64,000 nucleotides of DNA, from positions 145,822-209,821 of the forward strand of contig CAVTOH010000002.1 in NCBI GenBank assembly GCA_963736295.1, given 5' to 3'. The stretch's first letter is position 1. Each line of letters opens with the position of its first letter. The translations under genes and the position numbers were made by a program. Origin of the DNA: an uncultured Actinomycetes bacterium. Its GTDB lineage: Bacteria; Actinomycetota; Thermoleophilia; Gaiellales; Gaiellaceae. Positions 11,335-21,374 of the stretch are shown piece after piece. Below the pieces are notes generated by a model. That model saw nothing but the letters and a program-made list of their open reading frames with translations. It did not search any database and was not told the DNA's origin.

Positions 11335-12238
11335 ATGTCGGAAACGTCACATCTGCGAATCGGTGAGCTCAGCTGGCGTTCCGGCGTGAGTCCCGAGCTG
11401 CTCCGGGCCTGGGAGCGGCGGTACGGCCTGCTCGAACCCGTACGCTCGCCCGGAGGTCTCCGCCTCTACTCGCTGGCGGATCTCGAGCGTGTACGCGTCA
11501 TGCGGCAGCACCTGGCCGAGGGGCTCGCTGCGGCGGAGGCGGCTGCGGCAGCTGTGCGAACGCTCCGGCGAGGACACTTCGACCGTTTCGGTCCGCACGC
11601 CTGCGGTGGTCCTCGACGAGCTCGCGGCAGCGCTCGAGGGCTTCGACGAGCCTCGAGCGCAGGCGATCCTCGACCGGCTGCTCGCCGAGACGACTCTGGA
11701 CGCGTTCCTATCCGAGATCGTGATGCCGTACCTGCACGACCTGGGAGACCGGTGGGAACGGGGCGAGACCACTGTCGCACAGGAGCACTTCGCCTCGAAC
11801 GTGCTCCGCGGGCGCTTGCTCGGGCTGGCACGGAGCTGGGGGCGCGGGGTCGGGCCGCGGGCGCTCCTCGCGTGCGCCCCGGGAGAGCAGCACGAGCTGG
11901 GGTTGATCGCCTTCGGACTCGCCCTGCGCGCCCACGGCTGGAGGATCGAGTACCTGGGAGCGGACACGCCGCTCGAGACGGTCGGTGACGTCGCAGACTC
12001 GCTCGGGGTCGATCTCGTCGTCGTGAGCACCGTGACGCCCGAGCGGATCGGAGGGCTTGCAACGCAACTGAGGCAGATCTCGCAAAGGCGCAGGCTCGCG
12101 ATCGGCGGCGCCGGGGCCGAAGGGGTGGACACCACCGCACTCGAAGCACTCGCACTGATCGACGATCCGGTCCGCGAGGCAGAGCGGGTAACCGCCCTCG
12201 TCCTCGCACCGGAGCCCGGGCGTGCGCGATCGTCCTGA
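11335..12238 (+). pseudogene. CarH/LitR-type MerR-family regulator with cobalamin-binding domain, one frame change near 11560-11590
   Basis: MerR HTH (LRIGELSWRSGVSPELLRAWERRYGLLEPVRSPGGLRLYS) is in the frame of ORF 11335. The B12 domain is in the frame of ORF 11489, with W-x9-EH (WERGETTVAQEH) and E-x-H-x-x-G (EQHELG). Confidence 0.8.
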
Positions 12239-13630: not shown

Positions 13631-14290
13631 CTACCGCACAGCGTCCGGCTCGAAGAGTCCGGTCTGGTAGGCAAGCACGACTGCTTGCACGCGGTCCCGG
13701 AGGCCGAGCTTCTGGAGGATGTGCGTGACGTGCGTCTTGACGGTCGTCTCGCTGATGTAGAGCTCGTCGCCGATCTCGGCGTTGGAGAGGCCACGAGCCA
13801 GCAAACGGAAGACGTCAAGTTCGCGCTCGCTGAGCTGCTCGACTTCCTTCGGAGGAGCCGGACGCGGCATGCGCGCGAACCTCTGGATCACGCGTCTCGT
13901 GATCGTCGGCGAGAGGAGCGCATCGCCCTCGGCGACAGTCCGGATCGCTGCGATCAGCTGCTCCGGAGAGTCGTCCTTGAGGACGAAGCCGCTCGCACCG
14001 ATTCGCAACGCCTCGAAGACGTATTCGTCGAGGTCGAACGTCGTGAGAATGAGAATCCGCGCGCCGTTGTCGGACGCGAGGATGCGTCGGGTCGCCTCGA
14101 GACCGTCGAGCTCGGGCATGCGGATGTCCATCAGGACGACGGCGGGATGAAACCGCGCGGCCTTGTCTACGGCCTCGAGCCCGTTGCTCGCCTCGGCCAC
14201 CACTTCCATGTCGTCCTCGCCGGCGAGCAACATGCGAAAACCGGCGCGCACCATCGACTGGTCGTCGGCGACGAGTACACGGATCGTCAT
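13631..14290 (-). CDS. Two-component response regulator, NarL/LuxR (FixJ) family
   Basis: Receiver domain (VLVADDQSMVRAG...VLMDIRMPELDG) plus LuxR HTH (LSERELDVFRLLARGLSNAEIGDELYISETTVKTHV). Confidence 0.9.
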   Translation of the reverse strand: MTIRVLVADDQSMVRAGFRMLLAGEDDMEVVAEASNGLEAVDKAARFHPAVVLMDIRMPELDGLEATRRILASDNGARILILTTFDLDEYVFEALRIGASGFVLKDDSPEQLIAAIRTVAEGDALLSPTITRRVIQRFARMPRPAPPKEVEQLSERELDVFRLLARGLSNAEIGDELYISETTVKTHVTHILQKLGLRDRVQAVVLAYQTGLFEPDAVR

Positions 14291-15474
14291 CGTTCGTCCT
14301 GGCCGAGCGGGAGGCGCGTACTAAGGACGAAACCGCCCTCGGTCGCCGTACCCGCACTCATCTCACCGCCGTAGATCTTGACCCGCTCCCGGACGCCGAC
14401 GAGACCGTGCCCGAGGCCGTCCGTCGTCGAGCTGCCCTCGCCGTTGTCCCGTATCTCGATCTCCAGCTCGTCCGGCCGATAGCGAACGATCACGTCCGCA
14501 TCGCTCGCGTGCGCGTGCTTAAGCGCGTTTGTCAGGCCTTCCTGGACTATGCGATAGGCGGAGAGGTCGATCCCTCGAGGAAGCGGGAAGGGCTCGCCGT
14601 CGACATGGAGCTCGACGGGCAGTCCCGCGCGGCCGATCTCGCCGAGCAATGAGTCGAGGCCGTCGAGGCCGGGCTGGGGCAGGAGCTCCGCCTCGTCCCC
14701 GTCGCGGCGCATGGCGGCGAGGAGACGACGCATCTCGGCAAGGGCTGTCCGGCCTGCCCGCTCGACGCTCCTCAGGGCGTCGCGGTCTTCGGCCATTGCG
14801 TCCGGGAGCTTGTGCCTCACGGCGCCCACCTGGAGCACCATGACGCTGACGGCGTGGGCGACGATGTCGTGAAGCTCGCGGGCGATCCGCGAGCGCTCCT
14901 CTGCCACCGCGACGCGTGCCGCCGACTCCCTGTCGCGCTCGGCTCTGGCCGCTCGTTCTTCTGCCGCTTCGGCCTGCTCGGCACGCTCACGCATCGCATA
15001 GCCCGCGATCCAGGCGACCACGAATCGGAGGGAGATGAAGACGAAGTCGCTGACCAACACTGCACCAGGGATGTTCTGGACCACGATCACGATCCCGACG
15101 ACGACGATGAGCAGGCCGGCCCCCGCTTTCATCGGATCCCGCAGGTTCCCGAGGAGGAACGCGGTTGCCAACCCGACGAGACCGAGGCTGCCGATGAACG
15201 GAATCAGCGCTCCGTCGACGTACGAGAGCCCCGCGGCCAGGAGCCAGTAGCTCGCCGGTGCGGCAAAAGGAAAGCGCCGACGCGCCAAGAGCGGCAGCAC
15301 GAGCACGGCCAACATGAGTACGCCGACCCACAGCGTCGTGGGCGGCGCGCCCGGCGAGTCGCGTGCGACGACGAGCTCGAGCATGCCCGCGATCAACATG
15401 ACCGCGATGAGCAACTCGAACCAGTACGTACGCGCCACGGAGCGGATCTGGATCACGAGCTGAACGTACCGCAC
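14287..15474 (-). CDS. Sensor histidine kinase, HisKA_3 class (LiaS/DesK/NarX-like), polytopic N-terminus
   Basis: H-box RIARELHDIVAHAVSVMVLQ and HATPase_c motifs (QEGLTNALKHA, DNGEG, GHGLVGVRERV). Overlaps the regulator start by 4 nt. Confidence 0.9.
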   Translation of the reverse strand: MRYVQLVIQIRSVARTYWFELLIAVMLIAGMLELVVARDSPGAPPTTLWVGVLMLAVLVLPLLARRRFPFAAPASYWLLAAGLSYVDGALIPFIGSLGLVGLATAFLLGNLRDPMKAGAGLLIVVVGIVIVVQNIPGAVLVSDFVFISLRFVVAWIAGYAMRERAEQAEAAEERAARAERDRESAARVAVAEERSRIARELHDIVAHAVSVMVLQVGAVRHKLPDAMAEDRDALRSVERAGRTALAEMRRLLAAMRRDGDEAELLPQPGLDGLDSLLGEIGRAGLPVELHVDGEPFPLPRGIDLSAYRIVQEGLTNALKHAHASDADVIVRYRPDELEIEIRDNGEGSSTTDGLGHGLVGVRERVKIYGGEMSAGTATEGGFVLSTRLPLGQDER

Positions 15475-15487
15475 GGTCTCACGACGC

Positions 15488-15586
15488 GCCTCCTACCCGA
15501 GTAGGAGCCGGAATCGTCGAGTCGTCGGAGTTCGATTCCGGCCTTCCGACGAGGCGCTCTGCGCAACCGCCTCCTAGCGTCGAGCA
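15488..15586 (+). promoter_or_regulatory. Conserved ~99-nt upstream element, copy A (divergent kinase/CPBP intergenic region)
   Basis: Gap-free hand alignment to 16500-16598, about 72 of 99 identical. Shared blocks: GAGTAGGAG, CGAATCGTCG, TCGGA, a 17-nt identical core CCGGCCTTCCGACGAGG, and CTCCTAG-N-GTCGAGC. Confidence 0.5.
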
Positions 15587-15614
15587 CTGGAATCGACCTG
15601 AAAGGAGGACGCTC

Positions 15615-16415
15615 ATGAGCGTCTCACTTCCACTCACAGCCACTGCCCGCTCCGACGCCGCAGTTTCGAGCGTCGAGATTCCGCAGCTGCGGATCGGCAG
15701 GATCTTCGCCGTCTGGGCGGCCGCCGCGCTCCCCATGGCAGCACTCGCCTGGCTCGTTGCGCCGATGCTCGAGGACCGGTTCGCCGGGGACGGCGTAGTG
15801 CCGATGGCGAAGGCGCTGATGGTGTGTCTCACCATCGGTCTCGTCTGGCAGTTCGCGCTCGTCGCGATCCTCGTTGGCCGCGAGCAGGGAACGCTCCGCT
15901 GGTCGACGGTCCGCGACGCTCTCTGGCTGCGCTCGCCGCGAAGCCCGCGGAGCGGCCGCGTCGGCGGCCGGGTGTGGCTCGTCCTCATTCCGTTGATCGT
16001 GGCCTTCGGAGCCGTGCACGAGCTGGTCCCGACCTTCGCTGCTCCCGAGAACCGCGACCTCGCCAGGCTCGTCGAGTCGGACGTCGGCAAGGCGTTCCTG
16101 GACGGCGCATGGGGTTGGTACGGCCTCCTCCTCGTCATGTTTCTCTTCAACACAGCCCTCGGCGAGGAGCTTCTCTTCCGCGGATACCTCTTGCCACGCA
16201 TGAACGGCGCCTTCGGACGCGGCGACTGGGTCGCGAACGGCCTGCTCTTCACCGGCTACCACCTCCATGTGCCGTGGGGGATGCCGGGCGCGCTGTTCGA
16301 CATGTTCATCCTCGCCTATCCGTCGAAGCGCTACCGAAGCGCGTGGATCGGAATCGCCGTCCACAGCGCGCAGAGCGTGGTCTTCGCGATCCTCGTGCTC
16401 ACGCTCGTCGTCTGA
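15615..16415 (+). CDS. CPBP-family intramembrane glutamic endopeptidase (CAAX protease/Abi family)
   Basis: Motifs EELLFRGYLLP, FTGYHL and HSAQSVVF in a polytopic protein. AAAGGAGG Shine-Dalgarno before the ATG. Confidence 0.8.
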   Translation: MSVSLPLTATARSDAAVSSVEIPQLRIGRIFAVWAAAALPMAALAWLVAPMLEDRFAGDGVVPMAKALMVCLTIGLVWQFALVAILVGREQGTLRWSTVRDALWLRSPRSPRSGRVGGRVWLVLIPLIVAFGAVHELVPTFAAPENRDLARLVESDVGKAFLDGAWGWYGLLLVMFLFNTALGEELLFRGYLLPRMNGAFGRGDWVANGLLFTGYHLHVPWGMPGALFDMFILAYPSKRYRSAWIGIAVHSAQSVVFAILVLTLVV

Positions 16416-16440
16416 AAGCACCGCGTCCCTGACCAGACCA

Positions 16441-16470
16441 AGTCCTGCGGGCAGTCGGGCTCGCAGGACT
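16441..16470 (+). terminator. Stem-loop after the CPBP gene (candidate intrinsic terminator)
   Basis: AGTCCTGCG-ggcagtcgggct-CGCAGGACT followed by TGGTCATTTTG. Confidence 0.5.
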
Positions 16471-16499
16471 TGGTCATTTTGTGCGGGGTATCGCTGGGT

Positions 16500-16598
16500 G
16501 CCTCCGTCCTGAGTAGGAGACCGAATCGTCGCCGGGTCGGACTGCGAATCCGGCCTTCCGACGAGGTCGCCGCGACGAGACGCTCCTAGGGTCGAGCC
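16500..16598 (+). promoter_or_regulatory. Conserved ~99-nt upstream element, copy B (before the small ORF and MMPL gene)
   Basis: Paralogue of 15488-15586 (see that feature). Lies directly after the terminator-like hairpin, so it probably heads its own transcription unit. Confidence 0.5.
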
Positions 16599-16643
16599 AT
16601 GCACTTCGACCCACTCGCACGAGCCGCAGCAGAAGGAGGAGCC

Positions 16644-16844
16644 ATGACGCGCACACTGACCGAGAGCCGCGAGCTCGCCGCCCGCGAGAGCGACGGGATC
16701 CACGTCCTCTTGCTCTGGCACCCGGACGAGAACGCGCTGACCGTGTCTGTCGAGGATGGCCGCGACGGAGAGCAGTTCCAGATCGCGGTTGCGCCCGACC
16801 GTGCCCTCGACGCCTTCTACCACCCGTTCGCCTACGCGGCCTGA
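16644..16844 (+). CDS. Small conserved hypothetical protein (66 aa, soluble) preceding the MMPL gene
   Basis: ATG at 16644 follows GAAGGAGGA. Sequence ...IHVLLLWHPDENALTVSVEDGRDGEQFQIAVAPDRALDAFYHPFAYAA. An upstream in-frame ATG at 16599 has no Shine-Dalgarno. Confidence 0.6.
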   Translation: MTRTLTESRELAARESDGIHVLLLWHPDENALTVSVEDGRDGEQFQIAVAPDRALDAFYHPFAYAA

Positions 16845-16857
16845 AAGGAGAACAGTC

Positions 16858-19080
16858 ATGCCCCGCACCACGCAGACCAACCACAACCTCGCGGCCCGCA
16901 TGGGTCGCTGGAGCGCCAGCCACTGGAAGACGGCCACCTTCGGTTGGCTCGCCTTCGTTCTCGTCGCCTTCGGGCTCGGAGGCCTCGCCGGTACGAAGAT
17001 CATCACGAACTCGGCCGGACCGGGCGAGTCCGGCCGTATGGACAGAATCCTCGAGGCCGGCTTCGAGCAGCCCGCCTCCGAGCACGTCCTGATTCAGAGT
17101 CGGTCGGCCCGTGTCGGCACGACCGCCTTCGATTCCACGATCGCGGACGTCGTCGCGCGCGTGTCGGCGGTGGCGGCCGTCCAAAACGTCCGCTCGCCAC
17201 TTGCACCTGGCTACGCGGCCCAGATCTCCAAGGATCGGCACTCCGCGCTCGTCCAGTTTCAGATCCGCGGTGACAAGGAGAAAGCGGTCGACAAGATCGC
17301 TCCGGTCCTCGCTACCGTCGCCGCCGTGCAACGCGCCCACCCGGGCTTCACCATCGGCGAGTTCGGCGATGCGAGCGCCGAAAAGGGCGTCGTCGAGTCC
17401 TACGACAAGGACCTCGGCAAGGCGGGCGCGCTCTCGCTTCCGATCACGCTGATCGTCCTGGTGCTCACGTTCGGCTCGCTCGTCGCGGCGGGCATCCCGC
17501 TCTTGCTCGCGCTGACCGCCGTGTTCGCGACCTTCGGGCTCGTCGCGCTTTCGAGCCTCGTGCTGCCGGTCGCGATGCAGGCCCCCGCGATGGTGCTCCT
17601 GATCGGGCTCGCGGTCGGGGTCGACTACTCGATGTTCTATTTGAAGCGGGAGCGCCAGGAACGAGCTGCCGGGCGCAGCGAACGGGCAGCTCTGGAAGCC
17701 GCGGCCGCGACCTCGGGCCGCTCGGTGCTCATCTCCGGCTTGACCGTGATGGTCGCAATGGCCGGCATGTTCCTTACCGGAGACAAGACGTTCTCATCTC
17801 TCGCTCTGGCCACCATCCTCGTCGTGGCCGTGGCAGTGCTCGGATCGCTGACGGTCCTGCCCGCCGTGCTCTCGCGGCTCGGCGACAGGGTCGAACGTGG
17901 GCGAGTCCCGTTCGTCGGTCGCCTCCGCCGTGATGACGGGGAAGGGCGGGTCTGGGGGGCGATCGTCGATCGCGTCCTGCGCCGGCCCGCTGTCTCAGCT
18001 GCCGTCGCAGCCGGTCTGCTGCTGACGCTCGCTGCGCCCGCGTTGCAGCTCCGCCTTGCGGCGCAGGGACCGGAGTCGTTCCCCGACTCGATCGCGGTCA
18101 TCAAGACGTACGACCGCATGCAGCAGGCGTTCCCTGGCTCGGCGCTTCCGGCCCAGGTGGTCGTCAAGGCACCGAGCGTGCAGACGCCGGCGATGCAGGA
18201 GGCGATTGCGCAGCTCGAGCAGCGGGCGCTCGCGAGCGGTCGCGCGTTCGAGCCGATCACCGTGGACGTGAACGAGGAGGGGACGGTCGCGAACATCACC
18301 GTCCCGATCGCAGGCAACGGAACCGATGCTGCCTCGAACGCGTCCTTCCGCATGCTGCGCAATGAGGTCGTCCCCGAGACGGTCGGCGCCCTTCCGGACA
18401 CGCAGGCCGGAGTGACAGGGCAGACTGCCGCGTGGAGGGACGAGGCAGACGCACTGAAGTCGAACCTGCCTCCCGTCGTCGCCTTCGTCCTCCTTTTCGC
18501 CTTCGGCCTGATGCTGGTCGCATTCCGCTCGATCGTGGTCGCGGCCAAGGCGATCCTGCTCAACCTGCTCTCGGTCGCCGCAGCCTATGGCGTGCTCGTG
18601 CTCGTCTTCCAGCACGGCGTCGGCGAGGGACTGCTCGGCGTGAGCTCCGCAACCGGGATCGACGCGGTGGTGCCGCTGCTCCTGTTCGTGATCCTGTTCG
18701 GCCTGTCGATGGACTACCACGTGTTCATCCTGAGCCGGATCCGGGAGACGTTCGACCGCGGCAAGAGCATGGATGAGGCGGTCGCGCACGGGATCAAGTC
18801 CACGGCCGGGGTGGTCACGAGCGCAGCGATCGTCATGGTCGCCGTCTTCGCGATCTTCGCGACGCTCTCGTGGCCGTTCTTCAAGCAGTTCGGCGTCGGG
18901 CTCGCGACCGCGATCCTGATCGACGCGACGATCGTCCGCGCAGTGCTCCTGCCAGCGTCGATGAAGCTGCTCGGGGACTGGAACTGGTACCTGCCCTCGT
19001 GGCTCCAGTGGCTTCCCCGTCTCGATCACGATGAGACGGAGGCAACGTCCGAGATCGAGCCGTCGGCTGCCTCTGCTTAG
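16858..19080 (+). CDS. MMPL-family (RND superfamily) membrane transporter
   Basis: 740 aa with two 6-TM bundles carrying GVDYSMFY and GLSMDYHVFILSRIRE motifs. AAAGGAG Shine-Dalgarno before ATG 16858. Confidence 0.9.
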   Translation: MPRTTQTNHNLAARMGRWSASHWKTATFGWLAFVLVAFGLGGLAGTKIITNSAGPGESGRMDRILEAGFEQPASEHVLIQSRSARVGTTAFDSTIADVVARVSAVAAVQNVRSPLAPGYAAQISKDRHSALVQFQIRGDKEKAVDKIAPVLATVAAVQRAHPGFTIGEFGDASAEKGVVESYDKDLGKAGALSLPITLIVLVLTFGSLVAAGIPLLLALTAVFATFGLVALSSLVLPVAMQAPAMVLLIGLAVGVDYSMFYLKRERQERAAGRSERAALEAAAATSGRSVLISGLTVMVAMAGMFLTGDKTFSSLALATILVVAVAVLGSLTVLPAVLSRLGDRVERGRVPFVGRLRRDDGEGRVWGAIVDRVLRRPAVSAAVAAGLLLTLAAPALQLRLAAQGPESFPDSIAVIKTYDRMQQAFPGSALPAQVVVKAPSVQTPAMQEAIAQLEQRALASGRAFEPITVDVNEEGTVANITVPIAGNGTDAASNASFRMLRNEVVPETVGALPDTQAGVTGQTAAWRDEADALKSNLPPVVAFVLLFAFGLMLVAFRSIVVAAKAILLNLLSVAAAYGVLVLVFQHGVGEGLLGVSSATGIDAVVPLLLFVILFGLSMDYHVFILSRIRETFDRGKSMDEAVAHGIKSTAGVVTSAAIVMVAVFAIFATLSWPFFKQFGVGLATAILIDATIVRAVLLPASMKLLGDWNWYLPSWLQWLPRLDHDETEATSEIEPSAASA

Positions 19081-20067: not shown

Positions 20068-20796
20068 CTACCGCTTCGTAATGACTCCGCTGCCCGAAAC
20101 CTCGGTCGCGAGGCTGTTCGGGTCGCCGCCGTACACGATCACACCGCTGCCGGGCACGGATGCGGCAAGCGAACGGGTCGCATGAACCTGAATACGCCCG
20201 GATCCTGACAACGTCGCCACGACGTCGCGTGCGACGAGGTCCTGGAGTCGGACGTCGCCCGAGCCGCTCAGGTCGACGTCGAGCTGGTCGGCCGTGCCGG
20301 TGATGCCGAGCACGCCGCTGCCGGGCATGCGTACTGTCAGCCGTTCCGCGGCCAGGCCCTCGACGCGAGCGACGCCACTGCCGCTGAGCACGACGGCTTC
20401 GAGCGTCGGGACCGTCACGTCGACGCCCATGGGGCTCCGAGTGGTGAAGCTTCCGCTGGTGCCTAGCACGAGCATTCCGCTTCGGACGTCCGTCGTGACG
20501 CGGTCGATGAGGTTGTCGTCGGCATGGACGACGACCGTCTGCTTCCCGCCGACGTGAACGGTAAGGACGCTGCTGCCGGCGAGATCGATCTCGGTGAACG
20601 AGGGGACGGTGCGTGACTGCGACGCAGAGACTCCCGAGCCCTGAATGCCCGTGGTGGATCCGGAGCCGCTCCCTCCATCGGTTCGTGCGAGCAACACGAC
20701 GGCCGTCCCGGCGAGGACGACGAGGGTCGCGAGAAGGATCACGTAGAGGCGACGCGGGGTGTGTCTGCTGGGCACCGGTGTGGGGGCGGTCGTCAT
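20068..20796 (-). CDS. Membrane-anchored GIN-domain / DUF2807-type putative adhesin-like protein
   Basis: N-terminal TM, then repeated beta-helix units ...SGSG(V/D)...(V/L) (LSGSGVARVEG, MPGSGVLGITG, LSGSGDVRLQD, LSGSGRIQVHA, VPGSGVIVYGG, VSGSGVITK). ATG 20796 follows GAAGGGAGAG and overlaps the upstream stop (ATGA). Confidence 0.7.
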   Translation of the reverse strand: MTTAPTPVPSRHTPRRLYVILLATLVVLAGTAVVLLARTDGGSGSGSTTGIQGSGVSASQSRTVPSFTEIDLAGSSVLTVHVGGKQTVVVHADDNLIDRVTTDVRSGMLVLGTSGSFTTRSPMGVDVTVPTLEAVVLSGSGVARVEGLAAERLTVRMPGSGVLGITGTADQLDVDLSGSGDVRLQDLVARDVVATLSGSGRIQVHATRSLAASVPGSGVIVYGGDPNSLATEVSGSGVITKR

Positions 20797-21374
20797 CGGG
20801 CTCTCCCTTCTCGATTGGAGATCGTGAACCCGGACCGGATCTGACGAACTCGGGCCTGCAGTTCCTCGGGCGGCAGAGCCGGATTCAGGAGCGGGCTCGC
20901 GGCGGGGTCCGTCACTAGTCGCGCGCACGCGACTGCGCAGGCAGGATCGAGCAGCAGGTCGTCGTCTTCGAGGTCGCACGCGAGGGCCGCGAGCTCCTCC
21001 GAGACGTGGACGACTCGGGGCTCGAGGCCCAGCTCCCCCGGTTGCGCCAGCCGGGCGCGGATCAACGCTGCGAACCAGTGCCGCTTCTCCGTCGTCGCTT
21101 CACGCGATGCATAGGACCGCACCTCGGCGATCACGTGCGCGTCGCGCTCGGCCGCCAGTCGATCGAGGAGATCCCACCGGCGCCACAATGCTCCCAGGCC
21201 ACGGCAGCCGACAACGACGCCTCCGAGCAAGAGCGGGATCGCCAAGGCGGGGCGAACCTGCGTGGCTACGAGCGCGAGCCCGAGCGCGAGCGCCGCAAGC
21301 GCCAGATCTTGCCATTCCTCCTGACGCAGCTCGCGGAGGCGTGCGGATGCGTCCTCAACAGCACGCGCGTACAT
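20793..21374 (-). CDS. Hypothetical protein with two central TM helices, translationally coupled to the GIN-domain gene
   Basis: ORF with coding bias (MYARAVEDASARLRELRQEEWQDLALAALALGLALVATQV...). Start chosen at ATG 21374. Confidence 0.5.
   Translation of the reverse strand: MYARAVEDASARLRELRQEEWQDLALAALALGLALVATQVRPALAIPLLLGGVVVGCRGLGALWRRWDLLDRLAAERDAHVIAEVRSYASREATTEKRHWFAALIRARLAQPGELGLEPRVVHVSEELAALACDLEDDDLLLDPACAVACARLVTDPAASPLLNPALPPEELQARVRQIRSGFTISNREGRAR

What the first reader, a model, noticed from the sequence alone, without database searches (positions are those of the whole stretch)
15488..16598. Two paralogous ~99-nt conserved leaders in front of consecutive transcription units next to a HisKA_3/LuxR two-component system
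- 15488-15586 lies in the divergent kinase/CPBP region. 16500-16598 follows a terminator-like hairpin and precedes the 66-aa ORF plus MMPL gene.
- The two align without gaps, with about 72 of 99 identical by hand count and about 83% outside one 16-nt variable block.
- Shared blocks are GAGTAGGAG, CGAATCGTCG, TCGGA, a 17-nt identical core CCGGCCTTCCGACGAGG, and CTCCTAG-N-GTCGAGC.

RNA reading:
- Copy A has a perfect hairpin CTCCTAC-ccga-GTAGGAG (15490-15507).
- Both copies can pair TCGTCG with CGACGA around an inner hairpin TCGGA-7nt-TCCGG whose loop differs.
- In both, TAGGAG could alternatively pair with the downstream CTCCTA, the kind of mutually exclusive pairing seen in attenuators and riboswitches.

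DNA reading:
- CCTAC-N4-GTAGG is a plausible dimeric LuxR/NarL-type response-regulator site.
- TAGCGT/TAGGGT fits a TANNNT -10 box.
- This would make the elements duplicated regulated promoters.

Either way, the two downstream units (CPBP protease; small protein plus MMPL) look co-regulated.
Basis: seen in the sequence. Interest (0 to 1): 0.6.

Follow-up and report, generated by a model that had tools for sequence, protein, structure and literature searches.

The report
Duplicated response-regulator promoter, not RNA leader
The two look-alike ~100-base stretches are two copies of a conserved promoter, most likely switched on by the neighbouring two-component regulator to drive a membrane protease and a small-protein/MMPL transporter pair; they are not folded RNA leaders, and the arrangement is an ordinary though neatly built example of bacterial gene control.

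Summary
15488-15586 and 16500-16598 align without gaps at 72/99 identity, and these are the only two copies in the 3.08-Mb genome.

The element is conserved in about 190 non-identical copies. They come from uncultured Gaiellaceae/Gaiellales and some other Actinomycetota. The element always sits at the start of an orthologous HisKA_3 kinase/LuxR regulator operon, or appears as a second copy further inside the cluster. It points at CPBP, small-protein+MMPL, MMPL or hydrolase genes.

The evidence favours DNA over RNA:
- RNAalifold finds no consensus structure.
- The palindrome shows 0 compensatory changes against 50 pair-breaking ones.
- The distance from palindrome to TAGCGT is fixed (74±2 nt) across a spacer of variable sequence.
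- The hexamer varies only as TANNNT.
- 60% of copies have ATG/GTG 5-8 nt after the hexamer. In 87 of 96 testable cases this start is fused in frame to the downstream gene or ends in an ATGA overlap with its start, which is the signature of a leaderless start.

The element is three tandem 23-bp units. Each is a 7-4-7 site related to CTCCTAC-N4-GTAGGAG, centred at -88.5, -65.5 and -42.5. Variants with 2 or 4 units exist.

Best reading: an activator-dependent promoter bound by the adjacent regulator. This is a new member of a known kind.

The parts
13631..14290 (-). Response regulator (receiver + LuxR/GerE HTH, NarL family), the proposed binder of the element
   Evidence: Pfam Response_reg 6.6e-26 and GerE 2.3e-21. 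The best NCBIfam hits, NarL/MadR/MctR, all fall below the equivalog cut-offs. Orthologues are 82-92% identical over the first 100 aa in related loci.
14287..15474 (-). HisKA_3 sensor histidine kinase. Its GTG start lies 13 nt from the 5' edge of copy A and it is transcribed divergently.
   Evidence: Pfam HisKA_3 and HATPase_c. An orthologue lies divergently beside the element in 100 of 123 copies from named records. It is also there in all 12 kinase-orthologue loci checked separately.
15488..15510 (.). Copy A, unit 1: GCCTCCTACCCGAGTAGGAGCCG. It holds the perfect 7-4-7 palindrome CTCCTAC(15490-96)-N4-GTAGGAG(15501-07), centred at about -88.5.
   Evidence: The palindrome with up to 2 mismatches is found in the genome only at the two copies plus two unrelated sites.
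15511..15533 (.). Copy A, unit 2: GAATCGTCGAGTCGTCGGAGTTC. It is a hybrid 7-4-7 site, ATCGTCG-N4-GTCGGAG, centred at about -65.5.
   Evidence: The unit 1 to unit 2 distance is 23 nt in 77/84 copies. GT at positions 14-15 and GA(G) at 18-20 are shared with unit 1.
15534..15556 (.). Copy A, unit 3: GATTCCGGCCTTCCGACGAGGCG. It is the promoter-proximal degenerate site, centred at about -42.5, where a -35 box would otherwise lie.
   Evidence: The unit 2 to unit 3 distance is 23 nt in 78/84 copies. GAATC is shared with unit 2, and GA at positions 18-19 occurs in 93%.
15575..15580 (+). Copy A -10 hexamer, TAGCGT
   Evidence: The hexamer fits TANNNT in 83/84 aligned copies, with T1, A2 and T6 essentially invariant. 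It lies 74±2 nt from the palindrome's right arm.
15586..15587 (+). Predicted transcription start of the CPBP unit. Copy A has CTG here, so a ~28-nt leader with GGAGG precedes ATG 15615.
   Evidence: Inferred from the position equivalent to the conserved ATG/GTG, 6 nt after the hexamer in other copies.
15615..16415 (+). CPBP/Rce1-like intramembrane protease gene, the target of copy A
   Evidence: Pfam Rce1-like 3.9e-12.
16436..16475 (+). Intrinsic-terminator-like hairpin ending the CPBP unit
   Evidence: 17-bp stem followed by ATTTTGTG.
16500..16522 (.). Copy B, unit 1: GCCTCCGTCCTGAGTAGGAGACC. The left arm has 2 mismatches and the right arm GTAGGAG (16513-19) is intact.
16523..16545 (.). Copy B, unit 2: GAATCGTCGCCGGGTCGGACTGC
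16546..16568 (.). Copy B, unit 3: GAATCCGGCCTTCCGACGAGGTC. The site centre is 16556.5, which is -42.5 relative to A16599.
16587..16592 (+). Copy B -10 hexamer, TAGGGT
16599..16601 (+). ATG at the predicted +1 of copy B. It is a leaderless start in frame with the 66-aa ORF and would give an 81-aa form.
   Evidence: ORF 16599-16844.
16644..16844 (+). Conserved 66-aa protein with no Pfam or NCBIfam family; the first gene of the copy B unit
   Evidence: Orthologues at 69-87% identity lie behind the element in other genomes.
16858..19080 (+). MMPL-family RND transporter, the second gene of the copy B unit
   Evidence: Pfam MMPL 3.3e-85.

Best explanation
Each copy is a complete activator-dependent promoter region of about 100 bp, working as DNA.

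**Anatomy.**
- Each copy holds three tandem 23-bp units, and each unit carries an 18-bp 7-4-7 site.
- The distal site is the near-perfect palindrome CTCCTAC-N4-GTAGGAG. The next is ATCGTCG-N4-GTnSGAG. The proximal site, ATCCGGC-N4-CGACGAn, is the most degenerate.
- The site centres lie at -88.5, -65.5 and -42.5.
- An 18-nt spacer of free sequence follows, with no -35-like hexamer, then a TANNNT -10 (TAGCGT in copy A, TAGGGT in copy B), then the transcription start 7 nt later.

**Proposed mechanism.**
- When the membrane kinase is stimulated, dimers of the adjacent NarL/LuxR-family response regulator become phosphorylated.
- They occupy the strong distal palindrome and spread cooperatively to the weaker sites.
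- The dimer at -42.5 recruits RNA polymerase, as a class-II-type activator does.
- This switches on the CPBP protease gene (copy A) and the small-protein/MMPL operon (copy B) together.
- In many relatives the mRNA is leaderless. In copy B, A16599 of an in-frame ATG is the predicted +1.

**How much is shown.**
- Shown from sequence: the anatomy, the conservation, the synteny with the two-component system, the absence of RNA structure signals, and the coding-frame signature at +1.
- Inferred: that the adjacent regulator is the binder, that it activates rather than represses, and the exact start site.
For: **Linkage to the two-component system.**
- Only two copies exist in the genome.
- In related genomes the element lies beside the start of the orthologous kinase-regulator operon; 100/123, with the rest mostly second copies inside the cluster; and 12/12 kinase-orthologue loci that BLAST had missed.
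- The downstream genes vary (CPBP, small protein+MMPL, MMPL alone, an alpha/beta hydrolase). The two-component system is the constant partner.

**Promoter signature.**
- The hexamer is TANNNT in 83/84 copies. Variation is confined to positions 3-5 (TAGCGT 69, TACCGT 5, TAACGT, TAGGGT, TAGTGT, and others).
- The hexamer sits at a fixed distance from the palindrome (74 nt in 65/84, range 73-76), although the ~18-20 nt in between are free in sequence.

**Position of the start.**
- 109/182 copies have ATG/GTG 5-8 nt after the hexamer.
- Of 96 copies with a recognisable downstream SD-led start, 72 are fused in frame and open, and 15 end in an ATGA stop/start overlap.
- The 62 copies without such a codon show no frame bias (25:16:21).
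- No SD precedes that codon, so translation there implies a leaderless 5' end.

**Modular DNA sites.**
- There are three 23-bp units, with 23-nt spacing in 77-78/84 copies.
- Natural variants have exactly one unit more (L050-52, L081, L083) or one unit fewer (L238, L177, L136).
- The second site reads GTAGGAG exactly in some lineages.

**Other points.**
- No -35-like hexamer is present: -35..-30 of copy B reads AGGTCG.
- The kinase start codon lies 13 nt from the element, which leaves no room for an upstream promoter for a plus-strand leader.
Against: - The start site is therefore inferred.
- No binding data exist. The half-site assignment of units 2 and 3 rests on weak similarity (10-12 of 23 positions between units).
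- A 23-bp spacing is 2.2 helical turns, so neighbouring dimers would not lie on one face of the helix.
- 100-bp conservation at 70-80% identity across families is unusually strong for a promoter.
- No promoter for the divergent kinase operon was recognised within the element.
- Copy A itself has CTG, not ATG, at the predicted +1. 62 of the 158 copies with a recognisable downstream start also lack a start codon there.
- Sequences from related genomes are not independent, so the counts overstate the significance.
Confidence: 0.75

Rival explanations
1. The element is a structured cis-regulatory leader RNA on the plus strand, a riboswitch or attenuator. TAGGAG would pair alternatively with either of the two CCUCCUA blocks and so control the downstream Shine-Dalgarno or transcription.
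For: - ~100 nt are conserved across families, a level typical of riboswitches.
- There are two inverted repeats: the palindrome gives z about -2.8 and the TCGTCG...CGACGA region about -1.5 against dinucleotide shuffles.
- CCUCC/GGAGG complementarity to the SD is possible in copy A.
Against: - No Rfam hit even at E<=10.
- RNAalifold on 84 copies predicts 0 pairs.
- The palindrome helix shows 0 compensatory changes, 1 wobble and 50 breaking cells. The TAGGAG/CTCCTA 'P1' has 3 double changes against about 100 breaks.
- The z-scores are equal on both strands and about 0 outside the two inverted repeats.
- The second CCTCC varies freely (GCCGTAG, CTCATAG...) with no compensation.
- Whole-unit insertions and deletions are tolerated.
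- In-frame start codons sit 6 nt after a TANNNT box.
- There is no room for a promoter between the kinase start and the element.
Confidence: 0.05
2. In the kinase-proximal copies the element is also, or instead, transcribed on the minus strand as the 5' UTR of the kinase-regulator mRNA. The palindrome would form a hairpin that hides the kinase's GGAGG (the complement of CCTCC 15489-93) and so set kinase translation.
For: - The kinase start is 13-14 nt from the palindrome in all A-type copies.
- The left arm read on the minus strand is GTAGGAGG.
- No minus-strand TANNNT box was seen between the palindrome and the kinase, so the kinase promoter must lie further into or beyond the element.
- GACGCT, the complement of AGCGTC at the -10, has A2 and T6.
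Against: - B-type copies keep the whole element although no minus-strand gene follows them.
- There is no covariation.
- The 14-nt SD-to-start spacing is poor.
- The minus-strand consensus fold is essentially empty (-0.9 kcal/mol).
Confidence: 0.1
3. The element is a promoter/operator, but it is bound by a regulator other than the adjacent response regulator, or the adjacent regulator represses rather than activates.
For: - Units 2 and 3 share GAATC and the inverted repeat TCGTCG...CGACGA, which differ from the unit 1 half-sites.
- A second palindrome, GTCGAG-N-CTCGAC, straddles the predicted start in many copies.
Against: - The only gene constantly linked to the element is the kinase-regulator pair.
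- The MerR gene at 11335-11988 is not part of the conserved neighbourhood in the loci examined.
- The lack of a -35 and a site at -42.5 fit activation.
Confidence: 0.08
4. The two copies are remnants of a mobile or repetitive element (MITE, att site with a tRNA-like GTTCGATTCC motif) and have no regulatory role.
For: - Copy A contains GTTCGATTCC, which resembles a tRNA T-loop.
- Duplication has occurred within the cluster.
Against: - There are two copies per genome at most, always syntenic and in the same orientation relative to the genes.
- The T-loop-like string is not conserved; most copies read GCTCGAATCC.
- No terminal repeats or transposase are present.
Confidence: 0.02

Closest known systems
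LiaR/VraR-type envelope-stress promoters of Firmicutes (PliaI, PvraSR) controlled by HisKA_3/NarL-family systems
   Same: - Both involve an intramembrane-type HisKA_3 kinase and a NarL-family regulator.
- Both have a very small local regulon next to the system, a palindromic operator upstream of a promoter with a weak or absent -35, and membrane-protein targets.
- A GIN-domain (DUF2807) protein lies nearby at 20068-20979, reminiscent of LiaG/LiaF.
   Different: - The operator sequence CTCCTAC-N4-GTAGGAG differs from the LiaR box as I recall it (from memory, not tested).
- The kinase and regulator score far below the LiaS/LiaR, MadS/MadR or MctS/MctR equivalog cut-offs.
- There are three phased sites rather than one extended site.
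- The targets are CPBP and MMPL genes, and the lineage is Thermoleophilia.
DesR at the Bacillus subtilis des promoter; NarL 7-2-7 heptamer sites
   Same: NarL-family dimers bind an inverted repeat plus adjacent weaker sites, with cooperative filling towards the promoter (established knowledge, cited from memory).
   Different: The geometry here is 7-4-7 with a strict 23-bp repeat and 2 to 4 units. The half-site sequence is unrelated to TACYYMT. No binding has been shown.
LuxR/TraR-type class II activation (lux box centred at -42.5)
   Same: A LuxR-type HTH dimer site is centred at -42.5 and replaces the -35 element. The site is 18-20 bp with dyad symmetry.
   Different: The proximal site here is the least symmetric of the three. 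The activator is a phosphorylation-dependent response regulator rather than an acyl-homoserine-lactone receptor.
Leaderless actinobacterial promoters (TANNNT followed 6-7 nt later by A/GTG)
   Same: The -10 consensus and its distance to the start codon are the same. No SD precedes the first codon.
   Different: A strong SD-led start lies 24-36 nt further on in the same frame, so two starts seem to coexist. Copy A has lost the +1 start codon.
Streptomyces MacRS (NarL-family; palindromic MacR box upstream of membrane-protein genes)
   Same: An actinobacterial HisKA_3/NarL system recognises a palindrome and controls membrane proteins.
   Different: The kinase matches the MacS model only at E=3.7e-6, 26 bits against a cut-off of 300. 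The motif differs (from memory: TGAGTACnnGTACTCA).

Membership tests
Response-regulator-dependent sigma-70-type promoter (NarL/LuxR family operator) | -10 hexamer of the housekeeping-sigma type at the right distance from the start | tested here: met
   The hexamer fits TANNNT in 83/84 copies. ATG/GTG lies 5-8 nt downstream in 109/182 copies, with a frame bias. The start itself has not been mapped.
Response-regulator-dependent sigma-70-type promoter (NarL/LuxR family operator) | Dyad-symmetric operator of a size that fits an HTH dimer | tested here: met
   An 18-bp CTCCTAC-N4-GTAGGAG site is present, with arm spacing invariant in 84/84 copies.
Response-regulator-dependent sigma-70-type promoter (NarL/LuxR family operator) | Cognate regulator gene linked to the site | tested here: met
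Response-regulator-dependent sigma-70-type promoter (NarL/LuxR family operator) | Regulator binds the site and changes transcription | not testable with these tools
   This needs EMSA or footprinting, reporter fusions or RNA data.
Response-regulator-dependent sigma-70-type promoter (NarL/LuxR family operator) | Activator site overlapping the -35 region (class II) | tested here: inconclusive
   Unit 3 is centred at -42.5 and no -35-like hexamer is present. However, unit 3 resembles the half-sites only weakly.
Riboswitch / cis-regulatory leader RNA | Match to a described RNA family | tested here: not met
   An Rfam 15 scan at E<=10 found nothing in 15488-16650.
Riboswitch / cis-regulatory leader RNA | Conserved secondary structure supported by covariation | tested here: not met
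   RNAalifold predicts 0 pairs. The proposed helices show no compensatory changes beyond the shuffled and slid controls.
Riboswitch / cis-regulatory leader RNA | Lies inside the 5' UTR of the regulated gene | tested here: not met
   This was tested indirectly only. The leaderless-start signature places +1 after the element, and there is no space for an upstream promoter. No direct RNA evidence was available.
LiaFSR-type envelope stress system | LiaS/LiaR equivalog-level similarity and a LiaF-type inhibitor gene in the operon | tested here: not met
   Strep_LiaS scores 79.6 bits against a cut-off of 450. No LiaF gene lies between the kinase and the element. A DUF2807 protein lies 4.5 kb away and was not analysed further.
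Leaderless mRNA | Start codon at +1 with no SD, 6-7 nt after the -10 | tested here: met
   It is met for copy B (ATG 16599) and for 109/182 homologues. It is not met for copy A (CTG).

The most novel reading that the evidence does not exclude
The 23-bp units may form a copy-number-variable array (2, 3 or 4 units in nature) on which regulator dimers polymerise from a high-affinity palindrome towards the promoter. The number of units would then tune threshold or gain. The distal palindrome may at the same time overlie the ribosome-binding region of the divergent kinase gene, coupling target activation to autoregulation of the sensor. Alternatively, the minus-strand transcript of the element could act as a kinase leader RNA.
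Probability: 0.15. Interest if true: 0.5.

Novelty: new member of a known kind. Interest (0 to 1): 0.3.

Why it matters
- **A testable operator for an uncharacterised system.** The result gives an operator (CTCCTAC-N4-GTAGGAG), a promoter architecture and a minimal regulon (CPBP protease, a 66-aa protein, an MMPL transporter; a secreted-type hydrolase in some lineages). The two-component system is widespread in Gaiellales, abundant soil Actinomycetota with almost no experimental genetics.
- **A method for uncultured lineages.** Promoter-versus-RNA questions can be settled from comparative sequence alone. The useful signals are spacing constancy, the TANNNT variation pattern and the frame bias of +1 start codons.
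- **Annotation consequences.** The small protein may start at 16599 (81 aa), and related genes may be leaderless.

Tried and rejected
- **Rfam scan:** the only hit was a chance MDR-NUDIX match inside the MMPL gene.
- **Sigma-70 consensus scan:** no promoter was called, because the tool requires a -35/-10 pair. This is uninformative for actinobacterial TANNNT promoters.
- **T-loop/tRNA-like reading of GTTCGATTCC:** rejected, because the string is not conserved and the stem does not pair in most copies.
- **Inner hairpins:** TCGGA-N7-TCCGG gives 64% paired cells and GCCGG/CCGGC 45%, with no support.
- **A small hairpin in the variable spacer:** columns 77/83 suggested it (GC 31, CG 21). It was rejected as a structure because the mean z of the spacer fold is -0.08 and the registers differ between copies.
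- **Small-peptide coding of the element:** rejected, because single-base indels occur between copies and the kinase ORF cannot be extended.
- **Search for further regulon members in the genome:** profile and palindrome scans found only chance-level hits.
- **Literature searches:** they found no description of this system.
- **Phylum-wide even sample:** 0/398 genomes outside the order. The names of several non-Gaiellales lineages in record titles therefore indicate a patchy spread or mis-binned contigs, not phylum-wide presence.
- **Kinase promoter:** I could not identify the promoter of the divergent kinase operon.
Full report
**1. Observation**

- The two stretches are real.
- Copy A lies between the divergent HisKA_3 kinase gene (GTG start at 15474) and a CPBP/Rce1-like gene (15615).
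- Copy B follows a 17-bp terminator-like hairpin (16436-16475). It precedes a 66-aa ORF (16644) and an MMPL gene (16858).
- Gene identities come from Pfam.
- In the 3.08-Mb genome these are the only two copies, by BLAST and by a profile search with filters off.
- The 18-bp palindrome with up to 2 mismatches occurs only at the two copies and at two unrelated sites.

**2. Distribution and context**

- The window belongs to an uncultured Gaiellaceae genus (Thermoleophilia, Actinomycetota).
- The element was found in four of the five families of the order (f1 50/275, f2 1/37, f3 6/14, f5 12/65). In the family search, 81 of 301 genomes gave a match at E<=0.01, and about 45 of those matches were full length.
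- It was found in 0 of 398 genomes sampled evenly from the rest of the phylum.
Most are Gaiellales and Thermoleophilia MAGs. Some are titled Solirubrobacterales, Acidimicrobiales, Nocardioidaceae, Propionibacteriaceae, Jiangellaceae or Kribbella. A few titles are implausible and suggest mis-binning.
- In total I collected about 190 non-identical copies.
- The element sits directly at the start of an orthologous kinase-regulator operon: and 100 of 123 copies. The remainder are mostly second copies further inside the cluster, as in this window.
- All 12 kinase-orthologue loci that the BLAST searches had missed turned out to carry a full element.
- The genes downstream differ: CPBP, small protein plus MMPL, MMPL alone, or a 714-aa alpha/beta hydrolase. 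The two-component system is therefore the constant partner.

**3. RNA or DNA?**

The RNA reading fails every test I could run.
- Rfam gives nothing at E<=10.
- RNAalifold on 84 copies predicts no pair on the plus strand and essentially none on the minus strand.
  - The palindrome hairpin has 0 compensatory changes, 1 wobble and 50 pair-breaking cells.
  - TCGTCG/CGACGA varies almost only by breaking.
  - The inner hairpin is paired in 64% of cells.
  - The alternative TAGGAG/CTCCTA pairing has 3 double changes against about 100 breaks. The second CCTCC block drifts freely (GCCGTAG, CTCATAG, CCCATAG) without any response in TAGGAG.
- Fold energies against dinucleotide shuffles are low only for the two inverted repeats, and equally so on both strands. 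They are at chance for the spacer (z -0.08) and for the element without the palindrome (z -0.36).

The DNA reading is supported by four independent features.
- **Fixed geometry.** The distance from the palindrome's right arm to the TAGCGT hexamer is 74 nt in 65/84 copies (range 73-76). This holds although about 18-20 nt in between have no conserved sequence. Three-base insertions in unit 3 are offset by shorter spacers.
- **Hexamer variation.** The hexamer varies exactly as an actinobacterial housekeeping -10 should. T1, A2 and T6 are essentially invariant, and positions 3-5 vary (TAGCGT 69, TACCGT 5, TAACGT 2, TAGGGT 2, TAGTGT 2, and others).
- **Start codons at +1.**
  - 109 of 182 copies carry ATG or GTG 5-8 nt (mostly 6) after the hexamer.
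  - 96 of these have a recognisable SD-led start further on. In 72 the upstream codon is in frame and open into it. In 15 more the short frame ends in an ATGA overlap with it.
  - The 62 copies without such a codon show no frame preference (25:16:21).
  - No SD precedes this codon, since the -10 lies there. Selection on its frame therefore implies leaderless translation, which puts the 5' end of the mRNA downstream of the whole element.
- **Modular units.**
  - The element resolves into three tandem 23-bp units (spacing 23 nt in 77-78 of 84 copies):
    - u1 GCCTCCTACCnnnGTAGGAGnCG
    - u2 GAATCGTCGnnnnGTnSGAGnnC
    - u3 GAATCCGGCCTTCCGACGAnGnn
  - Each unit holds an 18-bp 7-4-7 window. u2 keeps the right arm, which is exactly GTAGGAG in several lineages. 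u3 is the most degenerate.
  - Natural variants have exactly one unit more (L050-52, L081, L083) or one unit fewer (L238, L177, L136).
  - Such whole-unit changes are what a binding-site array tolerates and a folded RNA does not.

**4. Mechanism**

- With +1 at A16599 for copy B (and 15587 for copy A), the site centres fall at -88.5, -65.5 and -42.5. The -10 lies at -12 to -7, and -35..-30 reads AGGTCG, which is not a -35 box.
- This is the layout of an activator-dependent promoter whose proximal site overlaps the -35 position.
- I propose that the phosphorylated NarL/LuxR-family regulator binds as dimers, first to the strong distal palindrome and then cooperatively to the weaker sites. The proximal dimer then recruits RNA polymerase.
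- Copy A drives the CPBP gene through a ~28-nt leader, since its +1 codon is CTG. Copy B drives the small-protein/MMPL operon, possibly as a leaderless mRNA that gives an 81-aa form of the small protein.
- Both units would respond together to whatever the polytopic kinase senses, presumably a membrane or envelope cue given the targets.
- What is shown is the anatomy, the conservation, the synteny and the coding signature. What is inferred is the identity of the binder, activation rather than repression, and the exact +1.

**5. Open points**

- The promoter of the divergent kinase operon was not identified. There is no TANNNT on the minus strand between the palindrome and the kinase start.
- The complement of the palindrome's left arm (GTAGGAGG) lies 14 nt before the kinase GTG. 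A second role in kinase expression, or minus-strand transcription through the element, therefore cannot be excluded.
- A 23-bp period is 2.2 helical turns, so the geometry of cooperative binding is unclear.
- The conservation (70-80% over 100 bp across families) is high for a promoter. The regulator itself is 82-92% identical over its first 100 aa (the part covered by the loci) across genera, which may explain it.

**6. Comparison and novelty**

- It works like the LiaR/VraR, DesR, NarL or LuxR class of promoters.
- It is not a member of any named system. The kinase and regulator score far below the NCBIfam equivalog cut-offs for NarL, MadRS, MctRS, LiaS or MacS.
- Two literature searches found no description.
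- I file it as a new member of a known kind: a well-defined but ordinary response-regulator promoter, duplicated within its gene cluster.
- Interest is modest. The value lies in a ready-to-test operator and regulon for an uncultured soil lineage, and in corrected start sites.

Noticed in passing
window 16599-16844: The ATG at the predicted transcription start is in frame with the 66-aa ORF (start 16644, strong GGAGG). The small protein may therefore exist as an 81-aa leaderless form as well. The same two-start arrangement recurs in 72 homologous loci.
   Followed up: partly
L238 (G215:C19), L177, L136; L050-L052, L081, L083: Natural variants of the element have two or four 23-bp units instead of three. 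They always differ by one whole unit.
   Followed up: partly
L113:1516-3660: One variant of the element comes from records titled Acidimicrobiaceae/Solirubrobacteraceae. There the gene behind the element is a 714-aa alpha/beta hydrolase (Abhydrolase_1 plus a TAP-like C-terminus), and its ORF begins at the predicted leaderless ATG.
   Followed up: partly
G274:C27:5701-8012; G096:C3:346962-349249; G284:C3:1482364-1484651: Many Gaiellaceae genomes hold paralogues of the kinase at 42-51% identity, some as tandem pairs. I did not examine whether they have their own operator.
   Followed up: no
L153, L112, L189, L114, L224 (record titles): These contigs carry the full element plus the orthologous kinase, yet they are titled Alphaproteobacteria, Acidobacteriota, Verrucomicrobiota or Pseudomonadota. 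They are probably mis-binned or mislabelled MAG contigs.
   Followed up: no
window 20068-20979 (-): A DUF2807 (GIN-domain, putative adhesin head) protein lies 4.5 kb from the two-component system. Similar domains occur in LiaG/LiaF-type accessory proteins of Lia systems (from memory).
   Followed up: no
window 15581-15599 and 16593-16612: A second, looser inverted repeat (GTCGA(G)-N6-10-(C)TCGAC) straddles the predicted start in many copies. The loop length varies. Some copies have different but still complementary arms (GCTTCGA/TCGAAGC, TCGTC/GACGA). It could be a 5'-terminal mRNA hairpin or a second operator.
   Followed up: partly
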